Source of the DNA: Candidatus Altimarinota bacterium
Lineage (GTDB): Bacteria > Patescibacteriota > Gracilibacteria > UBA4473
Assembly: GCA_965231215.1 (NCBI GenBank)
Contig: OZ246423.1
Coordinates: forward strand, 160,001 to 224,000
Direction of reading: 5' to 3'
Length of the DNA stretch: 64,000 bases
Below are positions 51,726 through 63,284 of this stretch, piece by piece (the stretch's first letter is position 1; each line of letters begins with the position of its first letter). The notes under the pieces are model-generated. The model was not told the DNA's origin, searched no databases, and saw nothing but the letters and a program-made list of their open reading frames with translations. The position numbers and the translations under genes are program-made.

Positions 51726-54700
51726 TTAGATTGTGGTGAGAGCGGCTCTTTCTTTGGCATAAGTTCCATCATTCCAGAGCCCTTGACTTAATTCTTGCAC
51801 TTTTTCATCATACTTGTCAACTACATCTCGAATATCGCTAATAATACAGCTCTTGCCATTCCCAAAAGCCTCAAAAGCAGCGTAGTAAGCGTCTTGGCAT
51901 GGTTTCACCGCTTCTTCAAAGTGACGAGGGTCATTTTCTCTAAACTTTTCTATTTCACTCAAAAACACCCAAGGCGCATCCAGGACGGCTCCCAAACTAT
52001 AATCTCTCAATAATCCTTCATATTCTGATCTCAAGGAAGACGCTAAAACACCCATTGGCTTACCCGTAATCTCTTGGGCTAAAATATTATGGAAAATCCA
52101 ATACCTATGAGCATCATCTATATGCATTCGCCCTAAAACATCCGTCCTCCCTTTACCACCTTCTGGCACAAAGGGCGCTTGGATTTCATTATAACCAGGA
52201 GCATCATAAGCCATCATTCGAGCACCTGTTAAATCATTGTGATCACTAGTGTCAAAAGATTTAGCGTTAAACCTAGCTGTAACATCAGTGGAAAGAAGCA
52301 TCATACTCCCTGTAATACCACAGTCTCGATTTGGGATTCTTACTGAACCACAAAGTTGAATTTCTGGCGAATCTGCAGAAATGAGTCCTTCTTCTTGAAG
52401 CAGTCGAGCAAACAAGGTTATTTCTGCAGAAGTTGGCATTGGAGGAAGGCATAAGGATTCACCAGCATGAATTAGCTTAAATGATGTTTGACTCAACCCA
52501 AGAAAACGTCTTAACCGTCTAAACAAATCTTCAGTAAAAGTTCCATGAAGATGGACCTTTCCAGCAAGAGGCATCATCCCAAAGTATTTTTTTCTTTGCA
52601 TCAGTATGTATTCACGAAATACTGGGAAAAAGTCTTCTAAAAGTTCTACATTTGTTAATGCTGTGCCAATTTCTCCTCTAGAATTTGGGGACATCAATAA
52701 AGGGAGATCACTGCTATTTGGGTGTCTAGCTGCCAGTAAAAATCCTGAAAGCAACGAGGCTCTTGTAGCCATCTCCGCATAACCACCTGGATTTTCTGTG
52801 TCTTTAGCTAATGGTATTTTCATGGCGGCTTGCCACACGTCTCCATACTCTAAAGGCCATCCAAAACTACGGAAAAAATCAGAAAAGCCTTCAACCTTTA
52901 GGTAACGACCCTCAGCCCAAATAGTTTTAAAGCTCATCAAATCAACATTAACATCAGGATCGTTATGTTTAGAGCCAGTATCTGAAAGCTCACGCATAGC
53001 CGTATGCAGTTTAATAATGTTGGTAAGATCTGTATGAAGTAGTTCTATAATCGAAGCTACCGTAAGTTCACTATTTTTATCTAAACTGGATAAGTCTTTT
53101 AAAAGCTTTTCTGTATCAAAAATATCAAGCCTAAAAGCCTTGTCTAAAGTAGAAACATTTAAATCCCCAGAACGGAAAATCTGAGAAAAATTTTTAGGAT
53201 CAAAATCAGTAATTTCCTTAACTTCACTTAAAACTCTAGCGATAATTAACCCTGATATGTTATCCGTAATAGCTCCTGATTTTAGCAAAATATCAACGAC
53301 CCGAATAAGCCCTATCGAAAACATTGTTTTAGCTAAATTTTGGTTTTGGCTTTGCTCTTGTAAATCAAAGAGTTGGGCATTAACCCTAGATACAATTTTT
53401 CTAATAGGGTGATCACTATACCCTTCATAGAAATAATGATCTTCTGAAGTCTTAGCAGTATCCAGATCAATCATCAATGGATCACCTTTTTGATTTCTAT
53501 CAGCAACATATCGCCCCCAAACCTCTGTCCAAAAACAAGCATGAGGTATCAAATCCAGGTCTATGGCTGATAGTTGCCATATATCTCTAAAGAATCTAGA
53601 AGCCTCTAAAACTATAGCTTCATCCGTTAATTTCTTCTTGGTCTTTTCATATTCTTCACCCGAAAATCCTTCTAACATCCAAGAAAGCCAATCTTCTACC
53701 TGTTCCCAAGTAAGCAGCCCATCAGCAAAAAAACCAAGTAAATTATGCATAACCATTGACCGATTAAGATAACTCTCTGTATTTTGACGATGTACATCTC
53801 TTCTTTCTTCACTGCCTGGGGTCTCAAATAGCCATTCATAGCTAATAGCCGGATTTTGAATATTCAGAAAAATATGAAGATATCGTATAAAACCATCAGG
53901 TGGGTTTAGCGGATCTTCAAAGAACCCAGCACAACAACTAAAATAAAAGCTCGCAACATTAGCATAACTAGAACGAAACCTCTGCATACTTTCACACTCT
54001 CGATAGAATTTCTCATAAAAATCAACAAAAGCCAAGCGTGGATTTTCAAGGCTTGCAGGAACAGATGAATCTAAAACCTCCTCTGGATCTGAAAGTCTTA
54101 AATGAGTTAGTGAAGGTAGTGCTAATCGATCAGAAATATCTTGAACTCTCCCATCTCTAGTTTGTATGCTAGCAGGCCTCCTTTCTTTACGGCTTTTAGC
54201 TAAATAATGAGGCACGTGTTCAGCGATCATTGCATCATCCACCGAACTAAACAAAATAGTGTCTGCATCAATTTTTCCAGACAAAGCTATGAGATTTTGC
54301 TGTCCTGGTAATTCGACTATAGTCTTTTTATCTTCAAGTAAACCTAACATTTCATTGTTTGGTTTATTCCTATCAATAAGCCCAAAAAACTTCTCTAAAT
54401 ATTCAACCTTTTCATCCTGAGTTTCTTTTACTATTTCAGTAGCTTGAACAATAAGCTTTTTAGCTCTGTCTGGATTCCCTACACCAAATTTAGCCACCAC
54501 TCGACTTACAAAATCAACAGCCAAGCTCTCATCCCCTCCTAGTGCTGTACATAGACCCATACCTACCTCAGCATAAACTTTAGCCGTATCCTCATAAGCA
54601 AAATGACTTTTCTCGGCAATAGATGTTAAAGTCTCAAGAGGAAGGCCTAAATCTGCCTGAACTAAATCACAACGATGTTTAAACCACCAAGGAGCCTCCC

Positions 54701-56006
54701 CCTCTGAATAAACGCGGCTCATTAACTTTATTGTAGTCCTAATGGCTTTCTCGATATTTCCTACTTCTTTTTTAACTAGAAATATCTGCTCTACAAAATC
54801 CAGAATATTCAGACCATTGCTCAAAGCTACGTTGAAGTCTTCAACAAAATTATAAAACCACAAAGCGTTATCTCTAAAAGCTTTTTGGAAAACAGGCCGC
54901 AATGAAGAACGAGTAAACAAATACAGCAACTCAGCAGTACACAAATCACCTAATTGAGACTGAACTTTCTCACACCAACTTTCGTTTCTAGTGTTTAAGT
55001 CAACCCTTACTGGTTGGGCTAATTGGGCTGGACTCAAATTTCCAACACGCTTTGCCATCTCCGTGTAGGCGTATTCCAATTGCCGAAAATCAAAATCATC
55101 TGCCCATAACTGCCAGCAAACACCTAGAGATGATTTAATTCTAGAGTTAGCCCATTCTAGGGGGCTATCAAATGCTTCATTCTGATCTAAAGCTTCTTCT
55201 ACCGCTTTAAAAAATTGAGGCAAGGCAAAACTGATTTGATGCTGGCCATCTTTACAACGCCCTTGTTCAAAATACAACCCCATACAAAGACGATCTTGTG
55301 GAATAAAAATTGGGTTTTTAAGAGAAAAATTAAGTACAAGATGATCCTTATTATTAGCAATAGATCCTTCCCTTGTCCCTATGACTGAACCAGGTTGATT
55401 TATATAGTCATCAAAATTTGTATCTAAGTCTGTTGGATGTAAAAACCCATTAGCCCGGACTCTATTTCTAGAGTCTAGCTTTGAAGCTCCAGGCTGCCTT
55501 CGAGCTACCCCCAGAATCATAAAAAGTGGAATATTATCCCCAAACCTACGAAGCATCCCCTCAATTTCGCTATTAACCCTTTGCCTTGCATGATCTCCAA
55601 CGAAAAAACGTTCTCTAAACATTCTCGCTTTAAGATGAGTACGCTCTGTCTCAAAATCAAATTGTTTACCGGTAGGTTCTCTTGTGAAACTTTCCTCCAA
55701 ACGCAGACTAAAAGAATCCGGTAACCCAGACCATGGAGCCTGAGTACTCATTAGAGAAGGGTCGGTTAAGTTCAACCTAAGACTTCTATATGTAGGAAAC
55801 TCTAAGTCATCTTTAAAAAAATCTAAAGATTCTGCAAAAACACGCTCACAGTCTTTTTCGAACTGGGCTTGCTGCGCATCTATTTTCTCTTCAAGTTCTT
55901 TCCATTTTATATCGTCCGAACAATCATACTCTTCTTCATCGGGATCAATAAATCCAACTAAATCCAAATCTTCAAATTCCGGAGAGATTCTATCCAACCT
56001 GCTCAT
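51726..56006 (-). CDS. Large (1426 aa) cytoplasmic hypothetical protein
   Basis: Uninterrupted 4.3-kb ORF; no signal peptide or TM; no family confidently recognised. Confidence 0.8.
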   Translation of the reverse strand: MSRLDRISPEFEDLDLVGFIDPDEEEYDCSDDIKWKELEEKIDAQQAQFEKDCERVFAESLDFFKDDLEFPTYRSLRLNLTDPSLMSTQAPWSGLPDSFSLRLEESFTREPTGKQFDFETERTHLKARMFRERFFVGDHARQRVNSEIEGMLRRFGDNIPLFMILGVARRQPGASKLDSRNRVRANGFLHPTDLDTNFDDYINQPGSVIGTREGSIANNKDHLVLNFSLKNPIFIPQDRLCMGLYFEQGRCKDGQHQISFALPQFFKAVEEALDQNEAFDSPLEWANSRIKSSLGVCWQLWADDFDFRQLEYAYTEMAKRVGNLSPAQLAQPVRVDLNTRNESWCEKVQSQLGDLCTAELLYLFTRSSLRPVFQKAFRDNALWFYNFVEDFNVALSNGLNILDFVEQIFLVKKEVGNIEKAIRTTIKLMSRVYSEGEAPWWFKHRCDLVQADLGLPLETLTSIAEKSHFAYEDTAKVYAEVGMGLCTALGGDESLAVDFVSRVVAKFGVGNPDRAKKLIVQATEIVKETQDEKVEYLEKFFGLIDRNKPNNEMLGLLEDKKTIVELPGQQNLIALSGKIDADTILFSSVDDAMIAEHVPHYLAKSRKERRPASIQTRDGRVQDISDRLALPSLTHLRLSDPEEVLDSSVPASLENPRLAFVDFYEKFYRECESMQRFRSSYANVASFYFSCCAGFFEDPLNPPDGFIRYLHIFLNIQNPAISYEWLFETPGSEERRDVHRQNTESYLNRSMVMHNLLGFFADGLLTWEQVEDWLSWMLEGFSGEEYEKTKKKLTDEAIVLEASRFFRDIWQLSAIDLDLIPHACFWTEVWGRYVADRNQKGDPLMIDLDTAKTSEDHYFYEGYSDHPIRKIVSRVNAQLFDLQEQSQNQNLAKTMFSIGLIRVVDILLKSGAITDNISGLIIARVLSEVKEITDFDPKNFSQIFRSGDLNVSTLDKAFRLDIFDTEKLLKDLSSLDKNSELTVASIIELLHTDLTNIIKLHTAMRELSDTGSKHNDPDVNVDLMSFKTIWAEGRYLKVEGFSDFFRSFGWPLEYGDVWQAAMKIPLAKDTENPGGYAEMATRASLLSGFLLAARHPNSSDLPLLMSPNSRGEIGTALTNVELLEDFFPVFREYILMQRKKYFGMMPLAGKVHLHGTFTEDLFRRLRRFLGLSQTSFKLIHAGESLCLPPMPTSAEITLFARLLQEEGLISADSPEIQLCGSVRIPNRDCGITGSMMLLSTDVTARFNAKSFDTSDHNDLTGARMMAYDAPGYNEIQAPFVPEGGKGRTDVLGRMHIDDAHRYWIFHNILAQEITGKPMGVLASSLRSEYEGLLRDYSLGAVLDAPWVFLSEIEKFRENDPRHFEEAVKPCQDAYYAAFEAFGNGKSCIISDIRDVVDKYDEKVQELSQGLWNDGTYAKERAALTTI

Positions 56007-56158
56007 TGCTATTTATATAAACTTTTTTTAAAAAAAGTCAATATTGGATATCACAAATTTTCTGTACAAAAAATTTGACCAACTTCGAACAAAAATTATA
56101 TTCAAGGGTGATGTTAAAAAAATTTCCTCTCCTAGGAGCCAAAAAAAACAAAAAAAAA

Positions 56159-57238
56159 ATGAGAGTCATCTTCTACAACGAGGTAAAAAAAACATCTTCC
56201 TACTCACTAAAACCCACTAATACCGTTAAAAATGCTTCACGCGTTTGGGGGCGTTTTTGCCTGCTTATTGGTATTTCTTCTATTGCTTTCTTCGTAAATA
56301 CTGAAGCATTTTATGACGTAGGTGAAACCGATCCACACCTTTCAACTTTCAATCATCTTCGAGATGTAGGCATTATGAAAGGTTCAGCTGATGGCAATTT
56401 CTACCCAGAAAAATTAATGACCCGAGCCGAAGCCCTCACCGTAGCGCTCAGATCAGGAGGGATTTCTATTCCCCAGTATTCAGGGGAAATACATTTTAAT
56501 GATGTAGATCCAAATGCCTGGTATGCGTCTACTGTAGCCAGAGCCGTAGAAACCAACGTTATCCGACCTGGATACACCAATTTTAGACCCGAGCAAGCGG
56601 TATCCAAAGCTGAGTTTTTAACTTTTCTTTTCCGGGCAACACTGACCGACCTCAAACCACATTACTCATCTCGGAATGTAGCCAGCGACATCCCAAATGA
56701 CAGTTGGATGGTTCCTTACTTTGATTATGCCAAAAGATATCAAATCGCTCATCTCCCAGCCGATGACCTTTATAGGCCTGCCAAAGCTCTCTCCAAAAGA
56801 GAAGTGGCACTCATGACTTACCGTCAACTCAAACTCTTCCACGGAAATGATGAAACAAAATTACTAGTAGAACTCAATGCCGCGATAAATCAGTTTCTGG
56901 AACTCATCCGAAATGGAAAAAACGAAGAAGCCGAATTCCAAGTACACCGACTCCTCCAACTCAATGAAAAAATTGCCCGAACCCGAAACAGTAGTGACGC
57001 CGTAGCGGCACTAGCGATCTCCAGGTCTATGGAACACCTCAGTGAAAGTTTTCGATATTTTCGATACGGCAACAACCTCCGAGGCATTGAGAACCTACAT
57101 CTAGCCCTCAAACAAGCCAGGCGAGCCCAAGAAAAATCTGTTGCCATGGAAGGTTTTGCCCAAGAACTTGCTAACATCATTAGTGAAAGTCTCATCACCT
57201 ACACTCAACCAAGTTTAGGCAGATACAGTCAGAATTAA
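56159..57238 (+). CDS. SLH domain protein with helical C-terminal domain
   Basis: MKGSADGNFYPEKLMTRAEA, FRPEQAVSKAEF, YRPAKALSKREVA; start uncertain (56111 or 56159). Confidence 0.85.
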   Translation: MRVIFYNEVKKTSSYSLKPTNTVKNASRVWGRFCLLIGISSIAFFVNTEAFYDVGETDPHLSTFNHLRDVGIMKGSADGNFYPEKLMTRAEALTVALRSGGISIPQYSGEIHFNDVDPNAWYASTVARAVETNVIRPGYTNFRPEQAVSKAEFLTFLFRATLTDLKPHYSSRNVASDIPNDSWMVPYFDYAKRYQIAHLPADDLYRPAKALSKREVALMTYRQLKLFHGNDETKLLVELNAAINQFLELIRNGKNEEAEFQVHRLLQLNEKIARTRNSSDAVAALAISRSMEHLSESFRYFRYGNNLRGIENLHLALKQARRAQEKSVAMEGFAQELANIISESLITYTQPSLGRYSQN

Positions 57239-57372
57239 ATCTATAAAAAACTCCCCTTTCTCCCTTTTAAGAAATTTTTCTAAAAATATCAATGAACCAT
57301 TCGTTAAAAAAGCCATGCATTGTTGAGCGACAGCAAGTTTGGATTTTTTAGAATGTGAGTTATTTATTTTTT

Positions 57373-57428
57373 AAAATTTTTTCATGGGATGACCTTTTTG
57401 GTTCGTTTTTGGCCACGCAAAAATGAAC
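57373..57428 (+). repeat. Dispersed hairpin element, copy 2
   Basis: AAAATTTTTTCATGGGATGACCTTTTTG-GTTCGTTTTTG-GCCACG-CAAAAATGAAC, homologous to 12431-12490. Confidence 0.75.
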
Positions 57429-57437
57429 ATACAGAAT

Positions 57438-57465
57438 TTGACAAAACACAAATCCTAATTAAACT
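57438..57465 (+). promoter_or_regulatory. Sigma70-type promoter of leader-proB transcript
   Basis: TTGACA-16 nt-TAAACT, 10 nt upstream of the leader ATG. Confidence 0.7.
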
Positions 57466-57475
57466 GAAAATACAA

Positions 57476-57523
57476 ATGAAAAATTTGATTGTTGTTCCCG
57501 CTCCACGCCCTCCGCAAAACTAG
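57476..57523 (+). CDS. Proline-rich attenuator leader peptide (15 aa)
   Basis: ATG AAA AAT TTG ATT GTT GTT CCC GCT CCA CGC CCT CCG CAA AAC TAG = MKNLIVVPAPRPPQN*; 4 Pro in 6 codons; stop overlaps the antiterminator strand. Confidence 0.8.
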   Translation: MKNLIVVPAPRPPQN

Positions 57524-57597
57524 CGAGTGGTATTTTGGTACAACAATAAAATTTTCAAAACCTTCACTCGCTCAAACCCGATAGCGAGTATTTTTTT
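57477..57597 (+). promoter_or_regulatory. Transcription attenuator (protector / antiterminator / terminator)
   Basis: Protector: AAAATTTGATTGTTGT(57480-95) with ACAACAATAAAATTTT(57540-55). Antiterminator: AGCGAGTG(57522-29) with CACTCGCT(57565-72). Terminator: ACTCGCT(57566-72) with AGCGAGT(57583-89), then A-T7. Confidence 0.8.
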
Positions 57598-57611
57598 ATG
57601 CAGGAAATTAA

Positions 57612-58415
57612 ATGCTAAACAAAATTATTATCCCAAAGTACGGAACTAACACCCTCACTACAGAAACTATAGATGGGGGAAAAGCTATTGATCATAATAA
57701 CATGGCAGAACATGGAAAACTCATTAATGCTCTTACTGATCCATCTTTAATTGTCAGTTCAGGAGCCGTTGGATACGGAAAAGCTCTAGCTGATTTTAGC
57801 TGGATTGAAGATCCTGTTCTTAGAAAAAGAATCCAAGCTATGAAAGGAAATCCTCATTTAGCTATCGCCTGGGATAAATTTATTAAAGATAAAGAAGTCT
57901 TACAAGGTCTCGCAACTCATAGAGCTTTTGCTAACGGAACTAAGCAGGAAGTAAGTAGAGTGCTTAAAGCTATTTACAGTGATCCTCTGAAATGTGTAGC
58001 GGTACTAAACGATAATGATTTCCTTTCTGATGAAGAATTGAAAAATTTAAGAGGCGGAGATTTTGGAGATAATGATAAAGAAGCCATACTCGCCGCAGAA
58101 GTATGTCTAGACTTTGCTGAAAGAGTAGAAGTCATCATTCAGACTTCAACCAACGGAGTACTAGATAGTACAGGGAGAACAATAGATCAACTTAAAGTGA
58201 GTGACCTTAGTGACGAAGTTATAAGAGAGCTCTGTGGAGAAACCACTAGCGAAGATGGAACTGGTGGAATGGCCGGAAAACTAACCCATGGAAGAGAACT
58301 CATGAAACAGTTTGGAGATCGTGTAAGTCTCGTAATTATTAATGGAAAAAACCCACAACAATTCAAAAACTTACTAGCCGGTAAATCTGTAGGAACTCAA
58401 CTTTTAGCCGCTTAA
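57612..58415 (+). CDS. proB: Glutamate 5-kinase (amino-acid kinase family, no PUA domain)
   Basis: KYGTNTL, VSSGAV, NDND (canonical NEND), FGDND, GTGGMAGKL, VGT. Confidence 0.8.
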   Translation: MLNKIIIPKYGTNTLTTETIDGGKAIDHNNMAEHGKLINALTDPSLIVSSGAVGYGKALADFSWIEDPVLRKRIQAMKGNPHLAIAWDKFIKDKEVLQGLATHRAFANGTKQEVSRVLKAIYSDPLKCVAVLNDNDFLSDEELKNLRGGDFGDNDKEAILAAEVCLDFAERVEVIIQTSTNGVLDSTGRTIDQLKVSDLSDEVIRELCGETTSEDGTGGMAGKLTHGRELMKQFGDRVSLVIINGKNPQQFKNLLAGKSVGTQLLAA

Positions 58416-58452
58416 AAAATAAAAATTTTATAACCTTTAACCTAAACCTATC

Positions 58453-59148
58453 ATGGAAATTTTAGTTCTCATACTGACCATCGCGGCTATTGATTTTTTA
58501 TCCATTCTGACACCTGGACAAGACTTTGCGATAGTTACCCGCAACACCTTAAAATACTCCAAAACTATTGGTATTTATACCGTTTTTGGAATTGGGTTTA
58601 TTACGCTTTGCCACTGCTTACTCGCGATGACCGGACTCAGTATCATCATTACCAAAAATCCAAACCTCATGGCCGGGATCAAAACTATTGGAGCTCTCTA
58701 CCTTATCTATCTAGGCACTAATTTTTTCAAAAATGCAAAAAACTTAGATATAGGATCTGAGTCCGGACTTCTCATAAAAAATGATTCACCTGAAAACTCA
58801 AAAAAACAATCCCCGAACCCAAAAGTCCGGACTCAAGATTCTATATCCCCTAAAAAAGCATTCCAAACCGGCGCTATTGCTAACCTCTTTAACATAGAAC
58901 CTATAATGGCCTTTGTAAGTATTTTTGCCATCATACTACCACCAGAAACTCAGACTTCTACAAAGCTCATTATTTGTGTGCTCCTGCCGTTAAACACTAT
59001 CTTATGGTTGTGTTTTATAACCCATATTTTCAGTGTGAAAAAAGTGCAGTACTTCCTGGCTCATCGAATGAAGGAATGCGAGCAAATCATTGGGATTATT
59101 CTCATTTTTTTCGGTTCAAAAACTTTAATAGAGCACAAAAACAACTAA
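58453..59148 (+). CDS. LysE/RhtB family amino-acid exporter
   Basis: TPGQDFAIV, GALYLIYLG, AFQTG...NL.N, about 6 TM. Confidence 0.88.
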   Translation: MEILVLILTIAAIDFLSILTPGQDFAIVTRNTLKYSKTIGIYTVFGIGFITLCHCLLAMTGLSIIITKNPNLMAGIKTIGALYLIYLGTNFFKNAKNLDIGSESGLLIKNDSPENSKKQSPNPKVRTQDSISPKKAFQTGAIANLFNIEPIMAFVSIFAIILPPETQTSTKLIICVLLPLNTILWLCFITHIFSVKKVQYFLAHRMKECEQIIGIILIFFGSKTLIEHKNN

Positions 59149-59158
59149 ACTTTCCTCG

Positions 59159-60832
59159 ATGCAAAAAATCGTTCAAGACTACTTAGCAAAAAACTGGAAT
59201 CCAGACTACGCTACAAAGCTCAACTTTGCTCCAGTACCCAAAGGACAGTCCGGGGATCTAGCGATGAACTTTTTTGCCCTTACCAAAGAACTCAGCAAAT
59301 CCCCTATTGAAATTGGAAATGAAGTATCTGAAGTTTTAAACGGATGTGACATTTTAGAAAAAACTGAAATGGCAGGGCCTTATTTAAATTTATACTTCAA
59401 ACCTGAAAAGTTCTTTGAAACCGCGCTCCAAACCCCACTCAAAACTGAGTTACTTAAAAACCAAACCGTTGTAGTTGAATACTCTTCCCCCAACACCAAC
59501 AAACCACTTCATCTGGGACACATGAGAAATCATGCCTTAGGGATTTCAGTTTCTAATCTACTTGAAGCTGTTGGAGCTAAGGTCGTTCGAGCCGCCATTA
59601 TTAATGATCGCGGAATTCACATTTGCAAATCTATGCTCGCCTACCAAAAGTTTGGTAACGATGAAACCCCAGAATCTACCGGCAAAAAACCAGATGAATT
59701 TGTAGGGCATTATTACGTAATGTTTGAAACCGAAAACAAAAAAGATGAATCACTCCTTAAAGAAGCTCAAGAAATGTTACGCGCCTGGGAAGATGGAGAC
59801 CCAGAAATTCGAAAGCTTTGGGAACAAATGAACGAGTGGACTTACCAAGGACATCAAAAAACCTATGACAGGCAGGGCGTTACTTTTGACAAAAAATACT
59901 ATGAATCTGACACCTACCAAATGGGAAGAGAATTTGCTCTCAAAGGGTTAGAAGAGGGAATCTTTTATAAAAAAGACGGAGCGGTCTGGATTGACCTATC
60001 AGATCAAGGGTTAGATGAGAAAATTATTATTCGTTCAGATGGAACCACCGTCTATGTAACCCAAGATCTCGCCACTACTTTTTTGAGAGCTAAAGATTTC
60101 AACTTCGATCAACATATCTGGGTAGTTGCCGATGAACAGAATTATCATTTTCAGGTACTTATTGCCTGTTTAGATAAACTTAAATTATGTGAGAAAGAAA
60201 AATTATTTCACCTGGGATATGGACTAGTACACCTGCCTGACGGACGAATGAAATCTCGAGAAGGAACCGTAGTCGATGCGGACAACCTCATGGATCAGCT
60301 GAAAGAAATGGCTACTACCAAGGTAGAAGAAAACAATAATGATTTCACAGCCGATGAAACTGAAGCTATTGCCGAAGCCGTACAAAACGCCGCTTGGAAA
60401 TTTTATTTACTGAAAACGTCTCCTAATAAAACCATTACTTTTGAAGCCGAAAAATCTATTGATTTTCAAGGCGCCACAGGGCCTTATCTTCAATATGCCG
60501 GAGTCAGAATAAAATCTATTTTACGTAAAGCCAGTAACTTCGATGTTAAAAATATCGCCGCCCTTGGCGAGGCAGAAAAACCATTAGGGGTAAAAATACT
60601 GGAATGGCCAGAGGTGCTAAACCGCGCCGCGGAAAACAAAAACCCAACCTATATGGTAACCTACTTACTAGAATTGGCACAGATCTGGTCTAGTTTTTAC
60701 GCCGAAAATTCAGTGCTGAATGCCGAAGCCCCTGATACAAAAAATGCCAGATTGGTACTGGCCCAAAAAGTGTTAGAAGTGCTCGAAACTGGGCTCAATA
60801 TCTTAGGCATTGAGGTGCCAGAAAAAATGTAA
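59159..60832 (+). CDS. argS: Arginine--tRNA ligase
   Basis: GPYLN, EYSSPNTNKPLHLGH, YESD, RSDGT.VY.TQD, MKSREG, GPYLQYA, PEKM C-terminus. Confidence 0.97.
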   Translation: MQKIVQDYLAKNWNPDYATKLNFAPVPKGQSGDLAMNFFALTKELSKSPIEIGNEVSEVLNGCDILEKTEMAGPYLNLYFKPEKFFETALQTPLKTELLKNQTVVVEYSSPNTNKPLHLGHMRNHALGISVSNLLEAVGAKVVRAAIINDRGIHICKSMLAYQKFGNDETPESTGKKPDEFVGHYYVMFETENKKDESLLKEAQEMLRAWEDGDPEIRKLWEQMNEWTYQGHQKTYDRQGVTFDKKYYESDTYQMGREFALKGLEEGIFYKKDGAVWIDLSDQGLDEKIIIRSDGTTVYVTQDLATTFLRAKDFNFDQHIWVVADEQNYHFQVLIACLDKLKLCEKEKLFHLGYGLVHLPDGRMKSREGTVVDADNLMDQLKEMATTKVEENNNDFTADETEAIAEAVQNAAWKFYLLKTSPNKTITFEAEKSIDFQGATGPYLQYAGVRIKSILRKASNFDVKNIAALGEAEKPLGVKILEWPEVLNRAAENKNPTYMVTYLLELAQIWSSFYAENSVLNAEAPDTKNARLVLAQKVLEVLETGLNILGIEVPEKM

Positions 60833-60968: not shown

Positions 60969-63284
60969 TTATAACAAAAACTTCGCCTCCCTCAACCCAT
61001 CAATTTTTTGTACCACCTGTAGAGAATCAATATCGATTTTACCTACGTATAAATCAGCGATTTCTCCGCCCTTTTGAAGATATTTTTCAATATCACGATT
61101 CCCCATAAAGTAGATTGCATCTTTAGTAAAGGCGCCTTTTGATTCACTATCGGCATACCCTCTTTTGGCCTTGAGGCACAATTTCCAAGCCAGGTCATCA
61201 CTTACATTAAAGGTGCTTTTTAGATAGTGGAATAAGTCGTGAAACCCCATTCGATTAGCCAAATAAATTGTAATAATTTGATAGGCAGGGGTGAGGAATT
61301 TTTCTCCAAGGTCTAACCCTAATTGATTTTGATTCCAGACAGCTAATCCTTCTTCAGTTCGAAGATAGTTAGCGGTTCCTCGTTCTAAAATTCGAAAAGG
61401 CTGCAGCTTTCCATTTTCATATCGGAACACATGTGTCCCGATCTCATGCACCAACAACGCATGCAATCTATTTCTTCTAAACTTAGCTCCTTTTTTTAGG
61501 AGTATCGCATCTCTTTTGGTTACCTGAATATCAGCTACAGATTCATCCAAAATTTTGATCTGCCAATGCCCAAGCCCATACTCTTTCAAAAAGTTATTCA
61601 AGATTTCTAAAGATTTTTTAAAATCAAGTTCTTCACTTTCATCAGCCTTAATTTTGCGTTCATGGTCTCTAATAAATTTTTGAGCCTCTTGATAAATATG
61701 TCGTGTAACTTTACCGAAGACTCTTTCTGAAAACAGTGCATACTCTGAACTTCCACGCGCCTCTAGCATTGACAGCCTATCCTCTAATTCTTGAATTTTT
61801 TTCTGAAACAGGGGGAATAATTCATGATTTACCTCTGGTAGTTTTTTGAGATCATTCCGCATAGCCGGAATATCTAGATTAATATCTTTATAGGTAAACC
61901 GAGGTGAAAATTCTGGACTCGCCAAAAATATTTCTTTTTGTTCTCTCAGATTCCGTGGATTGATAAATGACAGTAACTTTATCTGTGTATCAATCTCGGC
62001 AATTTTTAAATCAATATTTTTGAGCATACGTTCATCTACAGAATGAGTAGAAATCTCGGCAAGATTTTCTTTTTCAAACTTTTTATTTGGGTCAATATAA
62101 AAATCACTCAAAAACTTACCAGCCAGGATGAGGTCAGCGTCTTTTAAATCCTTGTGACTTTTCTCTACTGGAAGTTTCAATCTTTTGCCGTGAAGTGTAA
62201 TATCTAAAACTTTATTTTTTTCATCATAATACTCCTTAGCAATAAAATTTTTTTCAGCATTAAGCGCTACACGAGCCACTAAACTTTGTGGTGGATCAGA
62301 ATTCAAAAGTACATTCTCATAGATACCCACAATAGGTTTTGGGATGAAGTGTTCTTCATACACAGATTTTTCAGCAAAAAGAGTTTTCGCTACATCCACC
62401 CCTTCTTCTGGGGTAAGGACTTTTAGATCTACTACTTTATCCAGCCTTTTTTTAAGCGGGACTCTATTGGCCACTTGAATTTTAAGTCCCGGACGAGCAT
62501 TAAGTTCCAATATCTTAACTCCGGTATTAGTAACCACTAAATCTACTCCCAAAAACCCAATTTTGGTAACTGACTGAGACTTAGCTACCGCATGCAAAAT
62601 CTCATCCCAATAAGGCACTTTAAATCCCGCAGCTTTTTCTCCGTTAGGAAGTCTGGTAATGAATTTAGATTTCTTAGCCGCCCCTGTAGTAATGCCCGAA
62701 CCAATATCTACTCCCATAGCAATTGCGCCAAGCTCCATATTGGCTTTGCCCTCAGATTCTACCGTTGGAACTCGTAGCATAGCCATCACTGGCACCATAT
62801 TAAATACGATTACCCGAACATCTGGAAGGCCTGTTTGAGTCAACAATCTGAAGTCAGGATGTGGATCTAATTTTTCCTCAAAAATGATATAATCATAAGT
62901 CCCTGAAATGGAATATTTCCCTTCTAAAATGTCAATGCAGTGCAGATATAAATGTTCTTGATCATATTTTTTACCAGAAACCGTCACCCAATTTTTCCCT
63001 TTACGCTTATCAATCACCAAAATCCCGCCTCCCGCAAAACCTCTGTTAGGTTTAATTACAAAAGATTCTGGTAACCCTTCAAAAAATTCATTCGTTAACT
63101 GACGTTGGTTTTTTACGGTATGAAAAAGTCTAGCCGCTCCAATCCCTCGGGATTCTAAAAACTGCTTGGTAAAAATTTTATCATCAGCAAATTTTTTATT
63201 ACTACTCGAGTTATACCGCGAAATATAGAGTAAATTTCGCGCATTCATTCCCAAAATGCCAGAGGTATCGTTAGTAAACAACAT
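60969..63284 (-). CDS. Fusion: alpha-L-glutamate-ligase-like ATP-grasp + degenerate RimB/retropepsin-like domain + DUF1704 (MATCAP-like) metallopeptidase
   Basis: GILGMNARN..YI.RYN, ADDK..TK, KPNRG..G.GI, GLPDVRVIVF..VPVMAMLR.PT..S.GKAN, ELNARPGL.IQ.AN; middle IVGIYENV..ARVALNA..LILAGKFLSDFYIDP; C-terminal HEIGTH, TEEGLA, AKRG, FTKD.IY..G, LYVGKI. Confidence 0.85.
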   Translation of the reverse strand: MLFTNDTSGILGMNARNLLYISRYNSSSNKKFADDKIFTKQFLESRGIGAARLFHTVKNQRQLTNEFFEGLPESFVIKPNRGFAGGGILVIDKRKGKNWVTVSGKKYDQEHLYLHCIDILEGKYSISGTYDYIIFEEKLDPHPDFRLLTQTGLPDVRVIVFNMVPVMAMLRVPTVESEGKANMELGAIAMGVDIGSGITTGAAKKSKFITRLPNGEKAAGFKVPYWDEILHAVAKSQSVTKIGFLGVDLVVTNTGVKILELNARPGLKIQVANRVPLKKRLDKVVDLKVLTPEEGVDVAKTLFAEKSVYEEHFIPKPIVGIYENVLLNSDPPQSLVARVALNAEKNFIAKEYYDEKNKVLDITLHGKRLKLPVEKSHKDLKDADLILAGKFLSDFYIDPNKKFEKENLAEISTHSVDERMLKNIDLKIAEIDTQIKLLSFINPRNLREQKEIFLASPEFSPRFTYKDINLDIPAMRNDLKKLPEVNHELFPLFQKKIQELEDRLSMLEARGSSEYALFSERVFGKVTRHIYQEAQKFIRDHERKIKADESEELDFKKSLEILNNFLKEYGLGHWQIKILDESVADIQVTKRDAILLKKGAKFRRNRLHALLVHEIGTHVFRYENGKLQPFRILERGTANYLRTEEGLAVWNQNQLGLDLGEKFLTPAYQIITIYLANRMGFHDLFHYLKSTFNVSDDLAWKLCLKAKRGYADSESKGAFTKDAIYFMGNRDIEKYLQKGGEIADLYVGKIDIDSLQVVQKIDGLREAKFLL

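What the first reader, a model, noticed from the sequence alone, without database searches (positions are those of the whole stretch)
57438..57611. Complete proline-sensing leader-peptide transcription attenuator upstream of glutamate 5-kinase (proB)
Seen in sequence: a promoter (TTGACA-16-TAAACT) precedes an unannotated 15-codon ORF, MKNLIVVPAPRPPQN*, with four Pro among six codons and each Pro codon (CCC, CCA, CCT, CCG) used once. Three mutually exclusive helices follow. 1:2 protector: 57480-95 with 57540-55 (15 of 16 pairs), plus inner CCAC/GTGG masking the antiterminator strand. 2:3 antiterminator: AGCGAGTG 57522-29 with CACTCGCT 57565-72, plus TTTTG/CAAAA. 3:4 terminator: ACTCGCT/AGCGAGT followed by A-T7, ending 14 nt before the proB ATG. 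The leader stop codon overlaps the antiterminator 5' strand. Established: this is the trp/his/thr attenuator geometry, and ProB catalyses the first step of proline synthesis. Inference: a ribosome stalled at Pro codons frees 2:3 and allows read-through, whereas one reaching TAG blocks 2:3 and the terminator forms. The proline controls I know are T-boxes (Bacillus proBA) and Pro-rich leaders of Mg transporters (Salmonella mgtL). I know of no classical attenuator for proline biosynthesis, and none in CPR-type bacteria. The RPP motif could alternatively or additionally sense EF-P.
Basis: partly seen in the sequence, partly recalled or inferred. Interest (0 to 1): 0.92.

Follow-up and report, generated by a model that had tools for sequence, protein, structure and literature searches.

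The report
Proline-codon attenuator before a ProB-like kinase
A short proline-rich leader peptide with switchable RNA hairpins sits in front of a glutamate-5-kinase-like gene and is conserved in related Gracilibacteria-type genomes, so it is very probably a textbook-style attenuator with a specificity (proline) not described for a biosynthetic operon.

Summary
A 15-codon ORF (57476-57523, MKNLIVVPAPRPPQN*) lies 10 nt after a -10-like hexamer. It is followed by three mutually exclusive helices and a T7 run that ends 14 nt before a 267-aa kinase gene.

The same build precedes ProB-type kinases at nine loci from four genera of one family, whose named members are Candidatus Gracilibacteria MAGs. 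Pro10 and Pro13 are invariant, Pro10 is written with four synonymous codons, and in one genus all three helix strands have a different sequence. In three genomes the leader heads a full proB-proC-proA or proB-proA-proC operon.

Folding with a ribosome footprint removes the terminator only when the A site sits on the Pro-codon stretch. This held in 7 of 9 sequences and was weak in 2.

The same genome carries equally built leaders whose enriched residue matches the gene: Thr before thrS, Leu before leuA, Val before valS.

Caveats:
- The window's kinase scores below the ProB cut-off.
- The complete genome has no proA or proC, so here the attenuator controls an orphan kinase, possibly with a LysE exporter and argS.
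- No RNA data exist.

Verdict: a new member of the classical leader-peptide attenuators. Five literature searches found no such element for proline biosynthesis.

The parts
57438..57465 (+). Promoter-like site: -35 TTGACA (57438-43), 16-nt spacer, -10 TAAACT (57460-65). The -10 hexamer ends exactly 10 nt before the leader ATG.
   Evidence: A TAnnnT hexamer ends 10 nt before the leader ATG in 9 of 9 leaders. No transcription start has been mapped.
57476..57523 (+). Leader ORF of 15 codons, MKNLIVVPAPRPPQN*. Pro codons at 8 (57497), 10 (57503), 12 (57509) and 13 (57512); Arg codon at 11; stop TAG 57521-23.
   Evidence: A 15-21 codon ORF with Pro10 and Pro13 is conserved at nine loci.
57480..57498 (+). 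5' arm of the outer helix (P0), inside leader codons 2-8.
   Evidence: An equivalent helix with a different sequence appears in the unconstrained folds of G001, G003, L114, G015, G004 and G002.
57507..57515 (+). Region 1: codons 11-14 (CGC CCT CCG), which pair with region 2 when no ribosome is present.
   Evidence: Minimum-energy fold. The same kind of hairpin appears in G001 and G003.
57522..57531 (+). Region 2: AGCGAGTG(GT), the 5' strand of the antiterminator. It overlaps the last two bases of the leader stop codon.
57537..57555 (+). 3' arm of the outer helix (P0).
   Evidence: 19 nt, 89% complementary.
57565..57572 (+). Region 3: CACTCGCT. It pairs either with region 2 (antiterminator) or with region 4 (terminator).
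   Evidence: Its CTCGC core is invariant in the six aligned leaders and also present in G002 and G004. G024 has TCATCTC instead, with matching partners.
57583..57597 (+). Region 4 (AGCGAGT, 57583-89), then A, then a T7 run (57591-97). Together with 57566-72 this forms the intrinsic terminator (7-bp stem, 10-nt loop).
   Evidence: It is not listed by the scan, whose loop limit is 8.
57612..58415 (+). Kinase of 267 aa from the amino-acid kinase family. It is ProB-like (glutamate 5-kinase type), has no PUA domain, and has no ProA or ProC partner in this genome.
   Evidence: for family and residues; for the missing partners.
58453..59148 (+). LysE/RhtB-type exporter, 231 aa, 37 nt after the kinase. 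Possibly co-transcribed.
   Evidence: No hairpin terminator is visible in 58416-58452. Co-transcription is inferred.
59159..60832 (+). Arginyl-tRNA synthetase, starting 10 nt after the exporter's stop. Possibly in the same transcript.
   Evidence: Inferred only.

Best explanation
This is a ribosome-mediated (leader-peptide) transcription attenuator that reads the supply of charged tRNA-Pro.

How it most likely works:
1. Transcription starts a few bases before the leader AUG. The -10 hexamer ends 10 nt upstream, and this genome almost lacks Shine-Dalgarno motifs, so the leader ORF is probably translated as a leaderless or near-leaderless message.
2. With no ribosome, the outer helix and the region 1:2 hairpin form. 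Region 3 is then free to pair with region 4, and the 3:4 hairpin plus U-run terminates transcription.
3. A ribosome that runs on to the stop codon covers region 2, which overlaps the stop. The terminator forms again.
4. A ribosome waiting for Pro-tRNA at codons 8-13 has melted the outer helix and region 1 but leaves region 2 free. Region 2 pairs with region 3, the terminator cannot form, and RNA polymerase reads into the kinase gene. Codon 10 is the most robust sensing position.

Status of the steps: the anatomy, its conservation and the thermodynamic switch are shown. The transcription start, the termination event and the response to proline are inferred.

In relatives the element heads proB-proC-proA or proB-proA-proC, that is, proline biosynthesis. 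In the window's genome only a diverged ProB-like kinase remains downstream, perhaps with the LysE exporter and argS. The sensor is therefore classical, but its output here is not a canonical proline pathway.
For: (1) Anatomy.

(2) Conservation. Nine loci carry a 15-21 codon leader, regions 2/3/4, a T-run of 6-8, and a ProB-type kinase 11-32 nt further on where the script measured it (8 of 9 loci; 14 nt in the window). They are G000, G001, G002, G003 and G004 (one genus), G011, G015 and G024 (three more genera), and metagenome contig L114.
- Pro10 and Pro13 are present in 9 of 9, Pro12 in 5 of 9, Pro8 in 6 of 9.
- Pro10 is written CCA, CCC, CCT and CCG, so what is conserved is the codon family and not the RNA sequence.

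(3) The leader evolves far more slowly than the gene behind it. Mean column identity is 82% among four same-genus-type leaders, while the kinases are 21-39% identical to the window's.

(4) Helices.
- The 2:3 duplex is -10.8 to -18.2 kcal/mol in 9 of 9, with shuffle p of 0.038 or less in 9 of 9. Region 2 always starts between -12 and +1 nt from the stop codon.
- G024 has entirely different strands (GAGGTGA / TCATCTC / GAGGTGA).
- G011 changes A-U to G-C in both 2:3 and 3:4.

(5) Footprint-constrained folding.
- In the window the terminator probability is 0.94 when free or at the stop, and 0.01-0.07 with the A site on codons 9-13.
- The switch also appears in G001, L114, G011, G024, G004 and G002, making 7 of 9.
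- It persists for at least one Pro codon at all four footprints tested.

(6) Cognate function. The leader heads ProB-ProC-ProA in G001 and G015 and ProB-ProA-ProC in G024, with ProA over the TIGR00407 cut-off in all three. In G011 the next gene after the kinase is a ProRS N-terminus.

(7) Same design elsewhere in this genome, with the enriched residue matching the gene: Thr x5 before thrS, Leu x6 before leuA, Val x5 before valS. Each shows the same fold switch. Thr-rich leaders precede thrS in 11 of 30 family loci.

(8) A single tRNA-Pro(UGG) reads all four Pro codons, and the genetic code is standard.

(9) Only 26 of 932 predicted starts have an SD-like motif, and TAnnnT peaks 6-10 nt before ATGs.
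Against: - There is no experimental or transcript evidence of any kind.
- In the equilibrium model two of nine leaders barely switch: G003 0.91 and G015 0.82-0.84.
- With a footprint of A-site +12 or more, Pro13 falls on the terminating side in the genus-type leaders.
- In G024 the antiterminator already dominates without a ribosome: terminator probability 0.16.
- RNAalifold on the MAFFT alignment found no pair with compensatory change, because the helices are out of register in that alignment. The covariation argument therefore rests on my per-sequence duplexes, not on a formal covariation test.
- Only three or four independent lineages are sampled.
- The attenuator was not found at 12 other family loci that hold a long ProB, at 4 loci of other families (L007, L017, L018, L022), or at 30 further loci of other families of the class.
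- The window's kinase is below the ProB cut-off, and proA and proC are not found in this 99.3%-complete single-contig genome. A proline-starvation signal therefore has no obvious useful output here.
- Five of nine leaders carry Arg codons inside the sensitive stretch.
Confidence: 0.8

Rival explanations
1. The leader senses how efficiently Pro-containing motifs are translated (EF-P activity or general translation capacity), as proposed for Salmonella mgtL/mgtP, and not the proline supply.
For: Pro-Pro at codons 12-13 occurs in 5 of 9 leaders. The genome encodes EF-P: TIGR00038, 220.6 bits. That Pro codons are intrinsically slow is recalled knowledge, also stated in the passages of review PMC12856214 that I read.
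Against: Four of nine leaders read P-R-R-P with no consecutive prolines. The invariant positions are Pro10 and Pro13, not a PP pair. Three leaders head complete proline operons. Sibling leaders in the same genome are enriched in the residue cognate to their gene (Thr-thrS, Leu-leuA, Val-valS), which points to tRNA charging as the shared signal.
Confidence: 0.08
2. In the genomes that lost proA and proC, the attenuator was re-tuned to sense Arg as well as Pro (PRRP/PRPP) and now serves arginine-related genes such as argS, argG or a LysE/ArgO-type exporter.
For: Arg codons at positions 11-12 occur only in the five genus-type leaders with an orphan kinase. The full-operon leaders read PQPP, PQPP and PLPP. 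Codons 11 and 12 lie inside the stretch where a stall removes the terminator. argS follows in the window and in G003, and an argininosuccinate-synthase-like ORF follows in L114; that name is my reading of the translation and was not tested.
Against: In G003 the kinase is followed by two hairpin-plus-T-run sites, and the next gene by another, so argS is a separate unit there. G011 has an orphan kinase but no Arg codon in the sensitive stretch. One or two Arg codons make a weak signal. No co-transcription data exist for the window.
Confidence: 0.08
3. The ORF and helices are a chance arrangement around an ordinary terminator or 5' UTR, with no regulatory role. Alternatively the 15-aa peptide itself is the functional product.
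For: The promoter scan alone is not above chance. Rfam gives no family match at gathering score. There is no RNA evidence.
Against: The whole build is conserved at nine loci while the flanking kinase diverges to 21-39% identity. The helix strands change together. My detector gives only 2 hits in the whole genome. The peptide's non-Pro residues vary freely.
Confidence: 0.02

Closest known systems
Classical leader-peptide attenuators of amino-acid operons (trpL, hisL, leuL, thrL, pheL, ilvL in Proteobacteria; also reported in Actinobacteria and for hisS in Bacilli)
   Same: A short ORF with clustered codons of the regulatory amino acid. Regions 1:2, 2:3 and 3:4 with an intrinsic terminator just before the first gene. 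A stop codon placed so that a terminating ribosome masks region 2. Cognate biosynthetic genes lie downstream in three relatives.
   Different: - The amino acid is proline. Five searches found no such attenuator for proline biosynthesis, and three further papers read by passages name none.
- The host is a Gracilibacteria-type (CPR) lineage. A search for 'Candidate Phyla Radiation' with 'leader peptide' and 'attenuat' returned 0 papers.
- The leader ORF has no Shine-Dalgarno motif and starts 10 nt after the -10 hexamer, so it is probably leaderless.
- An extra outer helix encloses the 1:2 hairpin.
- No Rfam leader family matches: Phe_leader 16.8 bits against a gathering score of 55.
Salmonella mgtL and mgtP (Pro-codon leaders of mgtA and mgtCBR)
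   Same: Short leader ORFs whose Pro codons couple translation speed to formation of alternative stem-loops and to transcription of the downstream gene (abstract of PMC3641672 in the listing; passages of PMC12856214).
   Different: Those leaders control Mg2+ transport and virulence genes, and mgtA read-out goes through Rho (PMC12856214). Here an intrinsic terminator is used and the regulated genes are proline-biosynthesis genes or their remnant. There is no sequence relation.
T-box leaders of proBA/proI in Bacillus (recalled, not checked in a paper here)
   Same: They control proline-biosynthesis genes by a terminator/antiterminator choice that reports tRNA-Pro charging.
   Different: A T-box binds uncharged tRNA directly and needs no translation. 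No T-box match was found in 56900-58000 at E up to 10.
Glutamate 5-kinase ProB (E. coli structure 2J5T; TIGR01027)
   Same: The best solved relatives of the kinase subfamily are glutamate 5-kinases: 2w21 and 2j5t, E about 1e-25 over the whole kinase domain. K9, G11, S50-G51, N133, D136, G152-D155, G219 and K223 (window numbering) are invariant in 8 of 8 subfamily members.
   Different: It scores 65 bits against a cut-off of 186, has no PUA domain, and evolves fast. In this genome it stands without ProA or ProC.

Membership tests
Leader-peptide (ribosome-mediated) transcription attenuator | A short translatable ORF in the 5' leader with clustered codons of one amino acid | tested here: met
   15 codons, with 4 Pro among codons 8-13. 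Conserved at nine loci with Pro10 and Pro13 invariant. That it is translated is inferred.
Leader-peptide (ribosome-mediated) transcription attenuator | An intrinsic terminator (hairpin plus U-run) between the leader ORF and the first structural gene | tested here: met
   7-bp stem 57566-72 / 57583-89 with T7, ending 14 nt before the ATG. A hairpin plus T6-T8 is present in 9 of 9. The simple scan does not list it (10-nt loop).
Leader-peptide (ribosome-mediated) transcription attenuator | An antiterminator helix that is mutually exclusive with the terminator | tested here: met
   57522-29 / 57565-72, 8 of 8 pairs, sharing region 3 with the terminator. Present in 9 of 9 at -10.8 to -18.2 kcal/mol, shuffle p 0.038 or less.
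Leader-peptide (ribosome-mediated) transcription attenuator | Geometry: a ribosome stalled on the regulatory codons frees the antiterminator, and a ribosome at the stop codon blocks it | tested here: met
   Constrained folds for the window: terminator probability 0.01-0.07 at codons 9-13 and 0.94 at codon 14 through the stop. Seven of nine sequences switch and two are weak. This is an equilibrium model only.
Leader-peptide (ribosome-mediated) transcription attenuator | The regulated genes make or charge the sensed amino acid | tested here: inconclusive
   Met in G001, G015 and G024 (full pro operons) and in G011 (proS next). In the window only a ProB-like kinase remains, with no proA or proC.
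Leader-peptide (ribosome-mediated) transcription attenuator | Read-through rises when the amino acid or its charged tRNA is scarce | not testable with these tools
   Needs a reporter or transcript assay.
Rfam leader families (Phe_leader RF01859 and others) and Arrc14 RF02860 | A score at or above the family's gathering threshold | tested here: not met
   Phe_leader 16.8 bits against 55. Arrc14 29.6 bits against 99. The Arrc14 alignment shows only a similar hairpin-plus-terminator layout.
T-box leader | A match to the T-box covariance model (specifier and T-box elements) | tested here: not met
   No T-box hit in 56900-58000 at E up to 10.
Glutamate 5-kinase ProB (TIGR01027 equivalog) | A score over the curated cut-off of 186 bits | tested here: not met
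   Window kinase 65.1 bits. G004 104.6 bits and G002 34.8 bits. The long ProB of G024 passes at 242.3 bits.
Glutamate 5-kinase ProB (TIGR01027 equivalog) | Kinase-fold catalytic and substrate motifs (K-x-G-T/S, S-G-A, N-x-N-D, G-D-N-D, T-G-G-M-x-x-K) | tested here: met
   Invariant in 8 of 8 subfamily members. The best PDB relatives are glutamate 5-kinases. Which residues are catalytic is recalled from the E. coli enzyme.
Glutamate 5-kinase ProB (TIGR01027 equivalog) | Works together with ProA and ProC in the same genome | tested here: not met
   No TIGR00407 or TIGR00112 match in the 99.3%-complete genome. tblastn with the same-genus ProA and ProC gives best E values of 4.1 and 2.8. The one aldehyde dehydrogenase present is generic.

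The most novel reading that the evidence does not exclude
This Gracilibacteria-type family runs a set of leaderless leader-peptide attenuators as its amino-acid sensing system: Pro before proB, Thr before thrS, Val before valS, Leu before leuA, and perhaps Met. The proline sensor has outlived the proline pathway. In at least five genomes it still guards a fast-evolving ProB-like kinase that keeps its catalytic residues although ProA and ProC are gone. That would mean the kinase has acquired a new function that is induced by proline starvation in a reduced, probably symbiotic cell.
Probability: 0.3. Interest if true: 0.78.

Novelty: new member of a known kind. Interest (0 to 1): 0.62.

Why it matters
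Proline is one of the amino acids for which no classical attenuator of a biosynthetic operon turned up in my literature searches. Textbook proline control is feedback inhibition of ProB, T-boxes in Bacillus, or Pro-codon leaders of Mg2+ transporters.

Finding one that is conserved and heads real proBCA operons extends the attenuation paradigm in two ways: to a new amino acid, and to the Candidate Phyla Radiation, where almost nothing is known about gene regulation.

It also gives a compact element of about 125 nt that can be tested in E. coli. Together with its Thr, Val and Leu siblings and the near absence of Shine-Dalgarno motifs, it suggests that attenuation can run on leaderless leader ORFs.

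The retention of the sensor in front of an orphan ProB-like kinase is a concrete lead to an unknown function in genome-reduced bacteria.

Tried and rejected
1. Bacteroidota 'leaders' such as MPPPALPMVGNLV upstream of proB. They are the out-of-frame reading of the conserved 3' end of proA, which precedes proB there. Rejected.

2. L009 (G027), MLSVNFGKYEIVHPPILDPTFL. There is no hairpin before the T-run. Rejected. L086 (a Lachnospiraceae MAG) gave one detector hit that I did not follow up.

3. Rfam. Arrc14 and Phe_leader score far below gathering, and the Arrc14 alignment shows layout resemblance only.

4. RNAalifold on MAFFT alignment A5. It gave 14 pairs and none compensatory. The helices are shifted by 2 nt between the window and its relatives, so the alignment is not in structural register. 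For that reason I built no covariance model and ran no count of structure pairs. Per-sequence duplex and constrained-fold scripts were used instead.

5. Genetic code 25 (TGA = Gly), which some Gracilibacteria use. It is rejected for this genome: frames ending in TGA mostly run only a few codons further before the next stop (median about 8; 4 of 58 run 100 codons or more), and there is no tRNA with anticodon UCA.

6. RNA evidence. No RNA holder was listed for 57000-59200. Read laying was not used, because contigs cannot show RNA ends.

7. DNA-level search for the valS and thrS leaders in the four same-genus genomes: nothing at E of 0.001 or less. The protein-anchored search then found Thr-rich leaders at 11 of 30 family thrS loci. 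None of those 11 is one of the two same-genus loci examined, G001 and G002.

8. The Arg/argS co-regulation idea is weakened by terminator-like hairpins after the kinase gene in G003.

9. Attenuator search outside the family: 0 of 30 class loci and 0 of the 4 other-family loci.

11. Supplementary files of papers were not consulted. Lists of predicted attenuators in the supplements of PMC2965389 or PMC4833913 could hold a proline case that I could not see.
Full report
**1. What is in the window**

Between an SLH-domain protein gene (56075-57238) and a 267-aa kinase gene (57612-58415) lies a 373-nt spacer. It contains:
- TTGACA (57438-43), 16 nt, TAAACT (57460-65);
- ten bases later an ATG (57476) that opens a 15-codon ORF, MKNLIVVPAPRPPQN, ending at TAG 57521-23. 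Codons 8, 10, 12 and 13 are Pro (CCC, CCA, CCT, CCG) and codon 11 is Arg.

- 57480-98 with 57537-55 (19 nt, 89% complementary);
- AGCGAGTG 57522-29 with CACTCGCT 57565-72 (8 of 8);
- ACTCGCT 57566-72 with AGCGAGT 57583-89 (7 of 7).

These are followed by A and T7 (57591-97), 14 nt before the kinase ATG.

The minimum-energy fold of 57470-57611 is -29.5 kcal/mol, z = -2.64, and 4 of 200 shuffles fold as well. It shows the terminator, the outer helix and, inside it, a hairpin that pairs 57507-15 (codons 11-14) with 57523-31.

Two results do not help. The promoter scan is not above chance by itself (14 sites against 12.6 expected).

**2. The genes behind it**

The kinase belongs to the amino-acid kinase family (PF00696, 28 bits) and is closest to ProB. 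It scores well below the curated cut-off: TIGR01027 65 bits against 186.

A profile of the subfamily finds E. coli glutamate 5-kinase structures as the best solved relatives, at E about 1e-25 over the full kinase domain. The motif residues are invariant in 8 of 8 members.

Next come a LysE/RhtB-type exporter (58453-59148) and arginyl-tRNA synthetase (59159-60832). I see no hairpin terminator in the 37 nt between kinase and exporter. Co-transcription is not shown.

**3. The genome**

- The window lies in a single-contig genome of 1,326,059 bp that is 99.3% complete.
- It uses the standard code. Frames ending in TGA mostly run on only a few codons, and there is no tRNA with anticodon UCA.
- It has one tRNA-Pro (UGG), EF-P and a ProRS.
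- It has no ProA (TIGR00407) and no ProC (TIGR00112). tblastn with the ProA and ProC of a same-genus genome gives nothing better than E = 2.8.
- Its one aldehyde dehydrogenase is generic.

The kinase is therefore an orphan here.

**4. Relatives: the decisive test**

A protein search in 61 relatives and then in all 43 genomes of the family found four clear orthologues of the short kinase. One DNA search found two more same-genus loci whose kinases had diverged too far for the protein search. A detector script found one more in front of a canonical long ProB. One metagenome contig added a ninth.

Loci from the genome search are not re-oriented. My first look at two of them was on the wrong strand and was corrected.

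The nine leaders:

| Genome or locus | Leader peptide |
|---|---|
| G000 (window) | MKNLIVVPAPRPPQN |
| G002 | MQNLFLVPAPRRPLN |
| G003 | MRNISLVPTPRRPLN |
| G004 | MTYTVSVPAPRRPLK |
| L114 (metagenome) | MQNTVLVPAPRRPLN |
| G001 | MQTTVLVSTPQPPLS |
| G015 | MNLQQTVILPQPPLHQE |
| G011 | MFLTNTLPVPTPPALTLRREE |
| G024 | MISTLINNTPLPPFFPSR |

- Pro10 and Pro13 are invariant (9 of 9), Pro12 is present in 5 of 9 and Pro8 in 6 of 9.
- Pro10 is written with all four codons.
- In all nine a TAnnnT hexamer ends 10 nt before the ATG.
- The distance from the ATG to the T-run is 107-118 nt.
- The kinase ATG follows 11-32 nt after the T-run in the eight loci where the script measured it, and 14 nt after it in the window.
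- Four same-genus-type leaders share 82% mean column identity, while their kinases are only 21-39% identical to the window's. The leader is under much stronger constraint than the gene behind it.

L034 and L035 from genome contigs are the same contigs as G011 and G015 and are not counted twice. L115 has the kinase at a contig end, so no upstream sequence is available.

**5. What the leader heads**

| Genome | Genes after the leader |
|---|---|
| G001 | proB-proC-proA (ProA 398.5 bits, over cut-off) |
| G015 | proB-proC-proA (ProA 401.6 bits) |
| G024 | long proB (242 bits, over cut-off)-proA-proC |
| G011 | kinase, then a ProRS N-terminus at the contig end; no proA or proC found (93% complete) |
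| G000, G002, G003, G004 | kinase only; no proA or proC found |

In three independent cases the element thus controls a complete proline pathway, which is what a proline sensor should do. In the window's genus, apart from G001, the pathway is gone but the sensor and the kinase stay.

**6. Alternative structures across the nine**

For each sequence I took the hairpin next to the T-run as regions 3:4. I then asked for the best duplex between region 3 and the 31 nt around the leader stop codon.
- The 2:3 duplex is -10.8 to -18.2 kcal/mol.
- It is reached by at most 3.8% of 2000 shuffles in every one of the nine.
- It starts between -12 and +1 nt from the first base of the stop codon.

The strands differ between lineages:

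| Lineage | Region 2 | Region 3 | Region 4 |
|---|---|---|---|
| Window's genus | AGCGAGTG (AGCTGGGTG in G003 and L114, with a bulge and a G-U pair) | CACTCGCT | AGCGAGT in the window; other partners in the relatives |
| G015 | AGAGTGAGTGG | CCACCTCGCTCT | CAGAGTGA |
| G011 | GGCGAG | CTCGCC | GGTGAG (A-U replaced by G-C in both helices) |
| G024 | GAGGTGA | TCATCTC | GAGGTGA |

RNAalifold on a MAFFT alignment did not recover this, because the helices are out of register in that alignment. I therefore claim covariation from per-sequence pairing only, not from a formal test.

**7. Does the geometry work?**

I folded each leader from 3 nt before the ATG to the base before the T-run. All bases up to 10 nt beyond the first base of the A-site codon were forced single-stranded, and I read the mean probability of the terminator pairs.

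| Sequence | Free | A site on the Pro-codon stretch | From the next codon, or at the stop |
|---|---|---|---|
| Window | 0.94 | codon 8: 0.32; codons 9-13: 0.01-0.07 | codon 14 to stop: 0.94 |
| G004 | 0.98 | codons 6-13: 0.00-0.07 | from codon 14: 0.98 |
| G011 | 0.98 | codons 7-14: 0.00-0.04 | from codon 16: 0.99 or more |
| G024 | 0.16 | codons 8-14: 0.00-0.01 | from codon 15: 0.95 |
| G001 | 0.98 | codons 11-13: 0.26-0.34 | from codon 14: 0.98 |
| L114 | 0.93 | codons 10-13: 0.25-0.43 | stop: 0.93 |
| G002 | 0.99 | codons 8-13: 0.20-0.75 | stop: 0.99 |
| G003 | 0.98 | no better than 0.91 | stop: 0.98 |
| G015 | 0.96 | no better than 0.82 | stop: 0.96 |

G024 has no protective 1:2 hairpin, which explains its low free value. 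G003 and G015 hardly move.

With footprints of +8, +10, +12 and +14 the picture holds for at least one Pro codon in the same seven sequences. Pro13 moves to the terminating side at +12 or more in the genus-type leaders. The invariant Pro10 is therefore the robust sensing codon.

This is an equilibrium model. It ignores the order in which the strands are made, which would favour 2:3.

**8. The same design elsewhere in this genome**

I ran the same detector for every amino acid over the genome, followed by folds and family assignment. Three more leaders are enriched in the residue that matches their gene:

| Leader peptide | Downstream gene | Score |
|---|---|---|
| MQNTTNTTTAKAG | thrS | 680 bits |
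| MKNFSLLLLLTLEIRAV | leuA | 750 bits |
| MRQPFVVVVNV | valS | 864 bits |

- The valS leader uses the same AGCGAG/CTCGCT/AGCGAG strands as the proB leader.
- Each has a -35, a TAnnnT hexamer 10-11 nt before the ATG, and a terminator probability that collapses only while the A site is on the leader codons.
- A Met-rich leader precedes a weak methyltransferase-like gene. I leave that one open.
- Thr-rich leaders precede thrS in 11 of 30 family loci examined. One further hit of that scan, L244, was dropped because its next ORF is not ThrRS.
- Only 26 of 932 predicted gene starts have an SD-like tetramer at -18 to -5.
- TAnnnT hexamers peak 6-10 nt before ATGs: 91 at spacing 8 against about 30 in the background. 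Leaderless messages seem common here, and a leaderless leader ORF would be normal for this organism.

**9. Distribution**

- The Pro leader was not found at 12 other family loci with a long ProB (L006, L008-L013, L015, L016, L019-L021; flanks of 1500 nt).
- It was not found at 4 loci of other families, or at 30 loci of other families of the class.
- It was not found at the non-Gracilibacteria ProB loci from the two collection scans, apart from one hit that I did not follow up (L086).
- G009, G061 and G063 were not examined.
- In the class sample, 143 of 401 genomes have a ProB match at E of 1e-10 or less. Proline synthesis is thus common there, and the attenuator is a speciality of part of one family.

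**10. Comparison with what is known**

In mechanism this is the trp/his/leu type.
- Five full-text searches for a proline attenuator found only the Salmonella mgtL/mgtP work and nothing on proline biosynthesis.
- Naville and Gautheret 2010 (PMC2965389, passages) and Korolev et al. 2016 (PMC4833913, passages) do not mention proline.
- A 2026 review of proline and translation (PMC12856214, passages) names SecM, MgtL and CadC as the Pro-based regulatory devices.
- A search joining 'Candidate Phyla Radiation', 'leader peptide' and 'attenuat' returned 0 papers.

Papers outside the held library, for instance Russian-language comparative surveys of attenuators that I recall but could not read, and the supplementary tables may contain a prediction I could not see.

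**11. Verdict**

- I put 0.8 on a Pro-tRNA-sensing attenuator.
- The main corrections concern the output. Here it is an orphan, sub-threshold ProB-like kinase with no ProA or ProC, possibly together with an exporter and argS.
- What a proline-starvation signal achieves in this genome is unexplained. The persistence of sensor plus kinase in at least five genomes that lack the pathway argues for a retained or new function.
- Novelty: a new member of a known kind.
- Interest: 0.62.

Noticed in passing
G000:C1 655326-655367 (+), locus L234; outside the window: A 13-codon leader MQNTTNTTTAKAG* (5 Thr) lies 10 nt after a TAATAT hexamer. It is followed by CCCTGGAGG / CTCCGGG / CCCTGGAG and T9, then thrS (TIGR00418, 680 bits). 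The terminator probability is 0.00-0.07 with the A site on codons 2-12 and 0.95 at the stop. Thr-rich leaders precede thrS in 11 of 30 family loci.
   Followed up: partly
G000:C1 around 1119271 (-), locus L235; outside the window: Leader MKNFSLLLLLTLEIRAV* (6 Leu, five of them in a row), followed by a terminator and then leuA (2-isopropylmalate synthase, 750 bits). This is a classical leu-type attenuator in a CPR-type genome.
   Followed up: partly
G000:C1 around 743579 (-), locus L236; outside the window: Leader MRQPFVVVVNV* (5 Val) before valS (864 bits). It uses the same AGCGAG/CTCGCT/AGCGAG strands as the proB leader. No DNA-level match was found in the four same-genus genomes.
   Followed up: partly
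G000:C1 around 637408 (-), locus L237; outside the window: A Met-rich leader MAMTMMMTSLKRSGRISA* with a strong terminator lies before a 206-aa protein. That protein matches HemK/PrmC-type methyltransferases only weakly (34 bits, below cut-off). A second Met-rich short ORF lies at about 72532 (-).
   Followed up: partly
whole genome G000: Shine-Dalgarno-like tetramers are nearly absent before genes (26 of 932 predicted starts). TAnnnT hexamers pile up 6-10 nt before ATGs, which suggests that leaderless mRNAs are widespread in this organism.
   Followed up: partly
L004 2438-2863 (G003), L114 3922-4353, L196 (G004) and L197 (G002), downstream of the kinase: A conserved protein of about 140 aa with no Pfam match follows the orphan kinase in the same-genus relatives. 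The window has a LysE exporter at that place instead.
   Followed up: no
window 60969-63284 (-): A 771-aa protein that joins an ATP-grasp domain (PF14397, 183 bits) to a MATCAP-type tyrosine carboxypeptidase domain (PF08014, 157 bits). This is an unusual fusion for a bacterium.
   Followed up: no
window 51726-56006 (-): A 1426-aa ORF was seen and not analysed.
   Followed up: no
window 57401-57428: An 11-bp inverted repeat, GTTCGTTTTTG / CAAAAATGAAC, lies just upstream of the -35 hexamer. It could be a terminator remnant of the SLH gene or an operator. It was not examined in relatives.
   Followed up: no
class-level ProB search: In several other families of the class the ProB matches contain 6-29 in-frame TGA codons, as expected for lineages that read TGA as a sense codon. 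The window's own family uses TGA as a stop.
   Followed up: no
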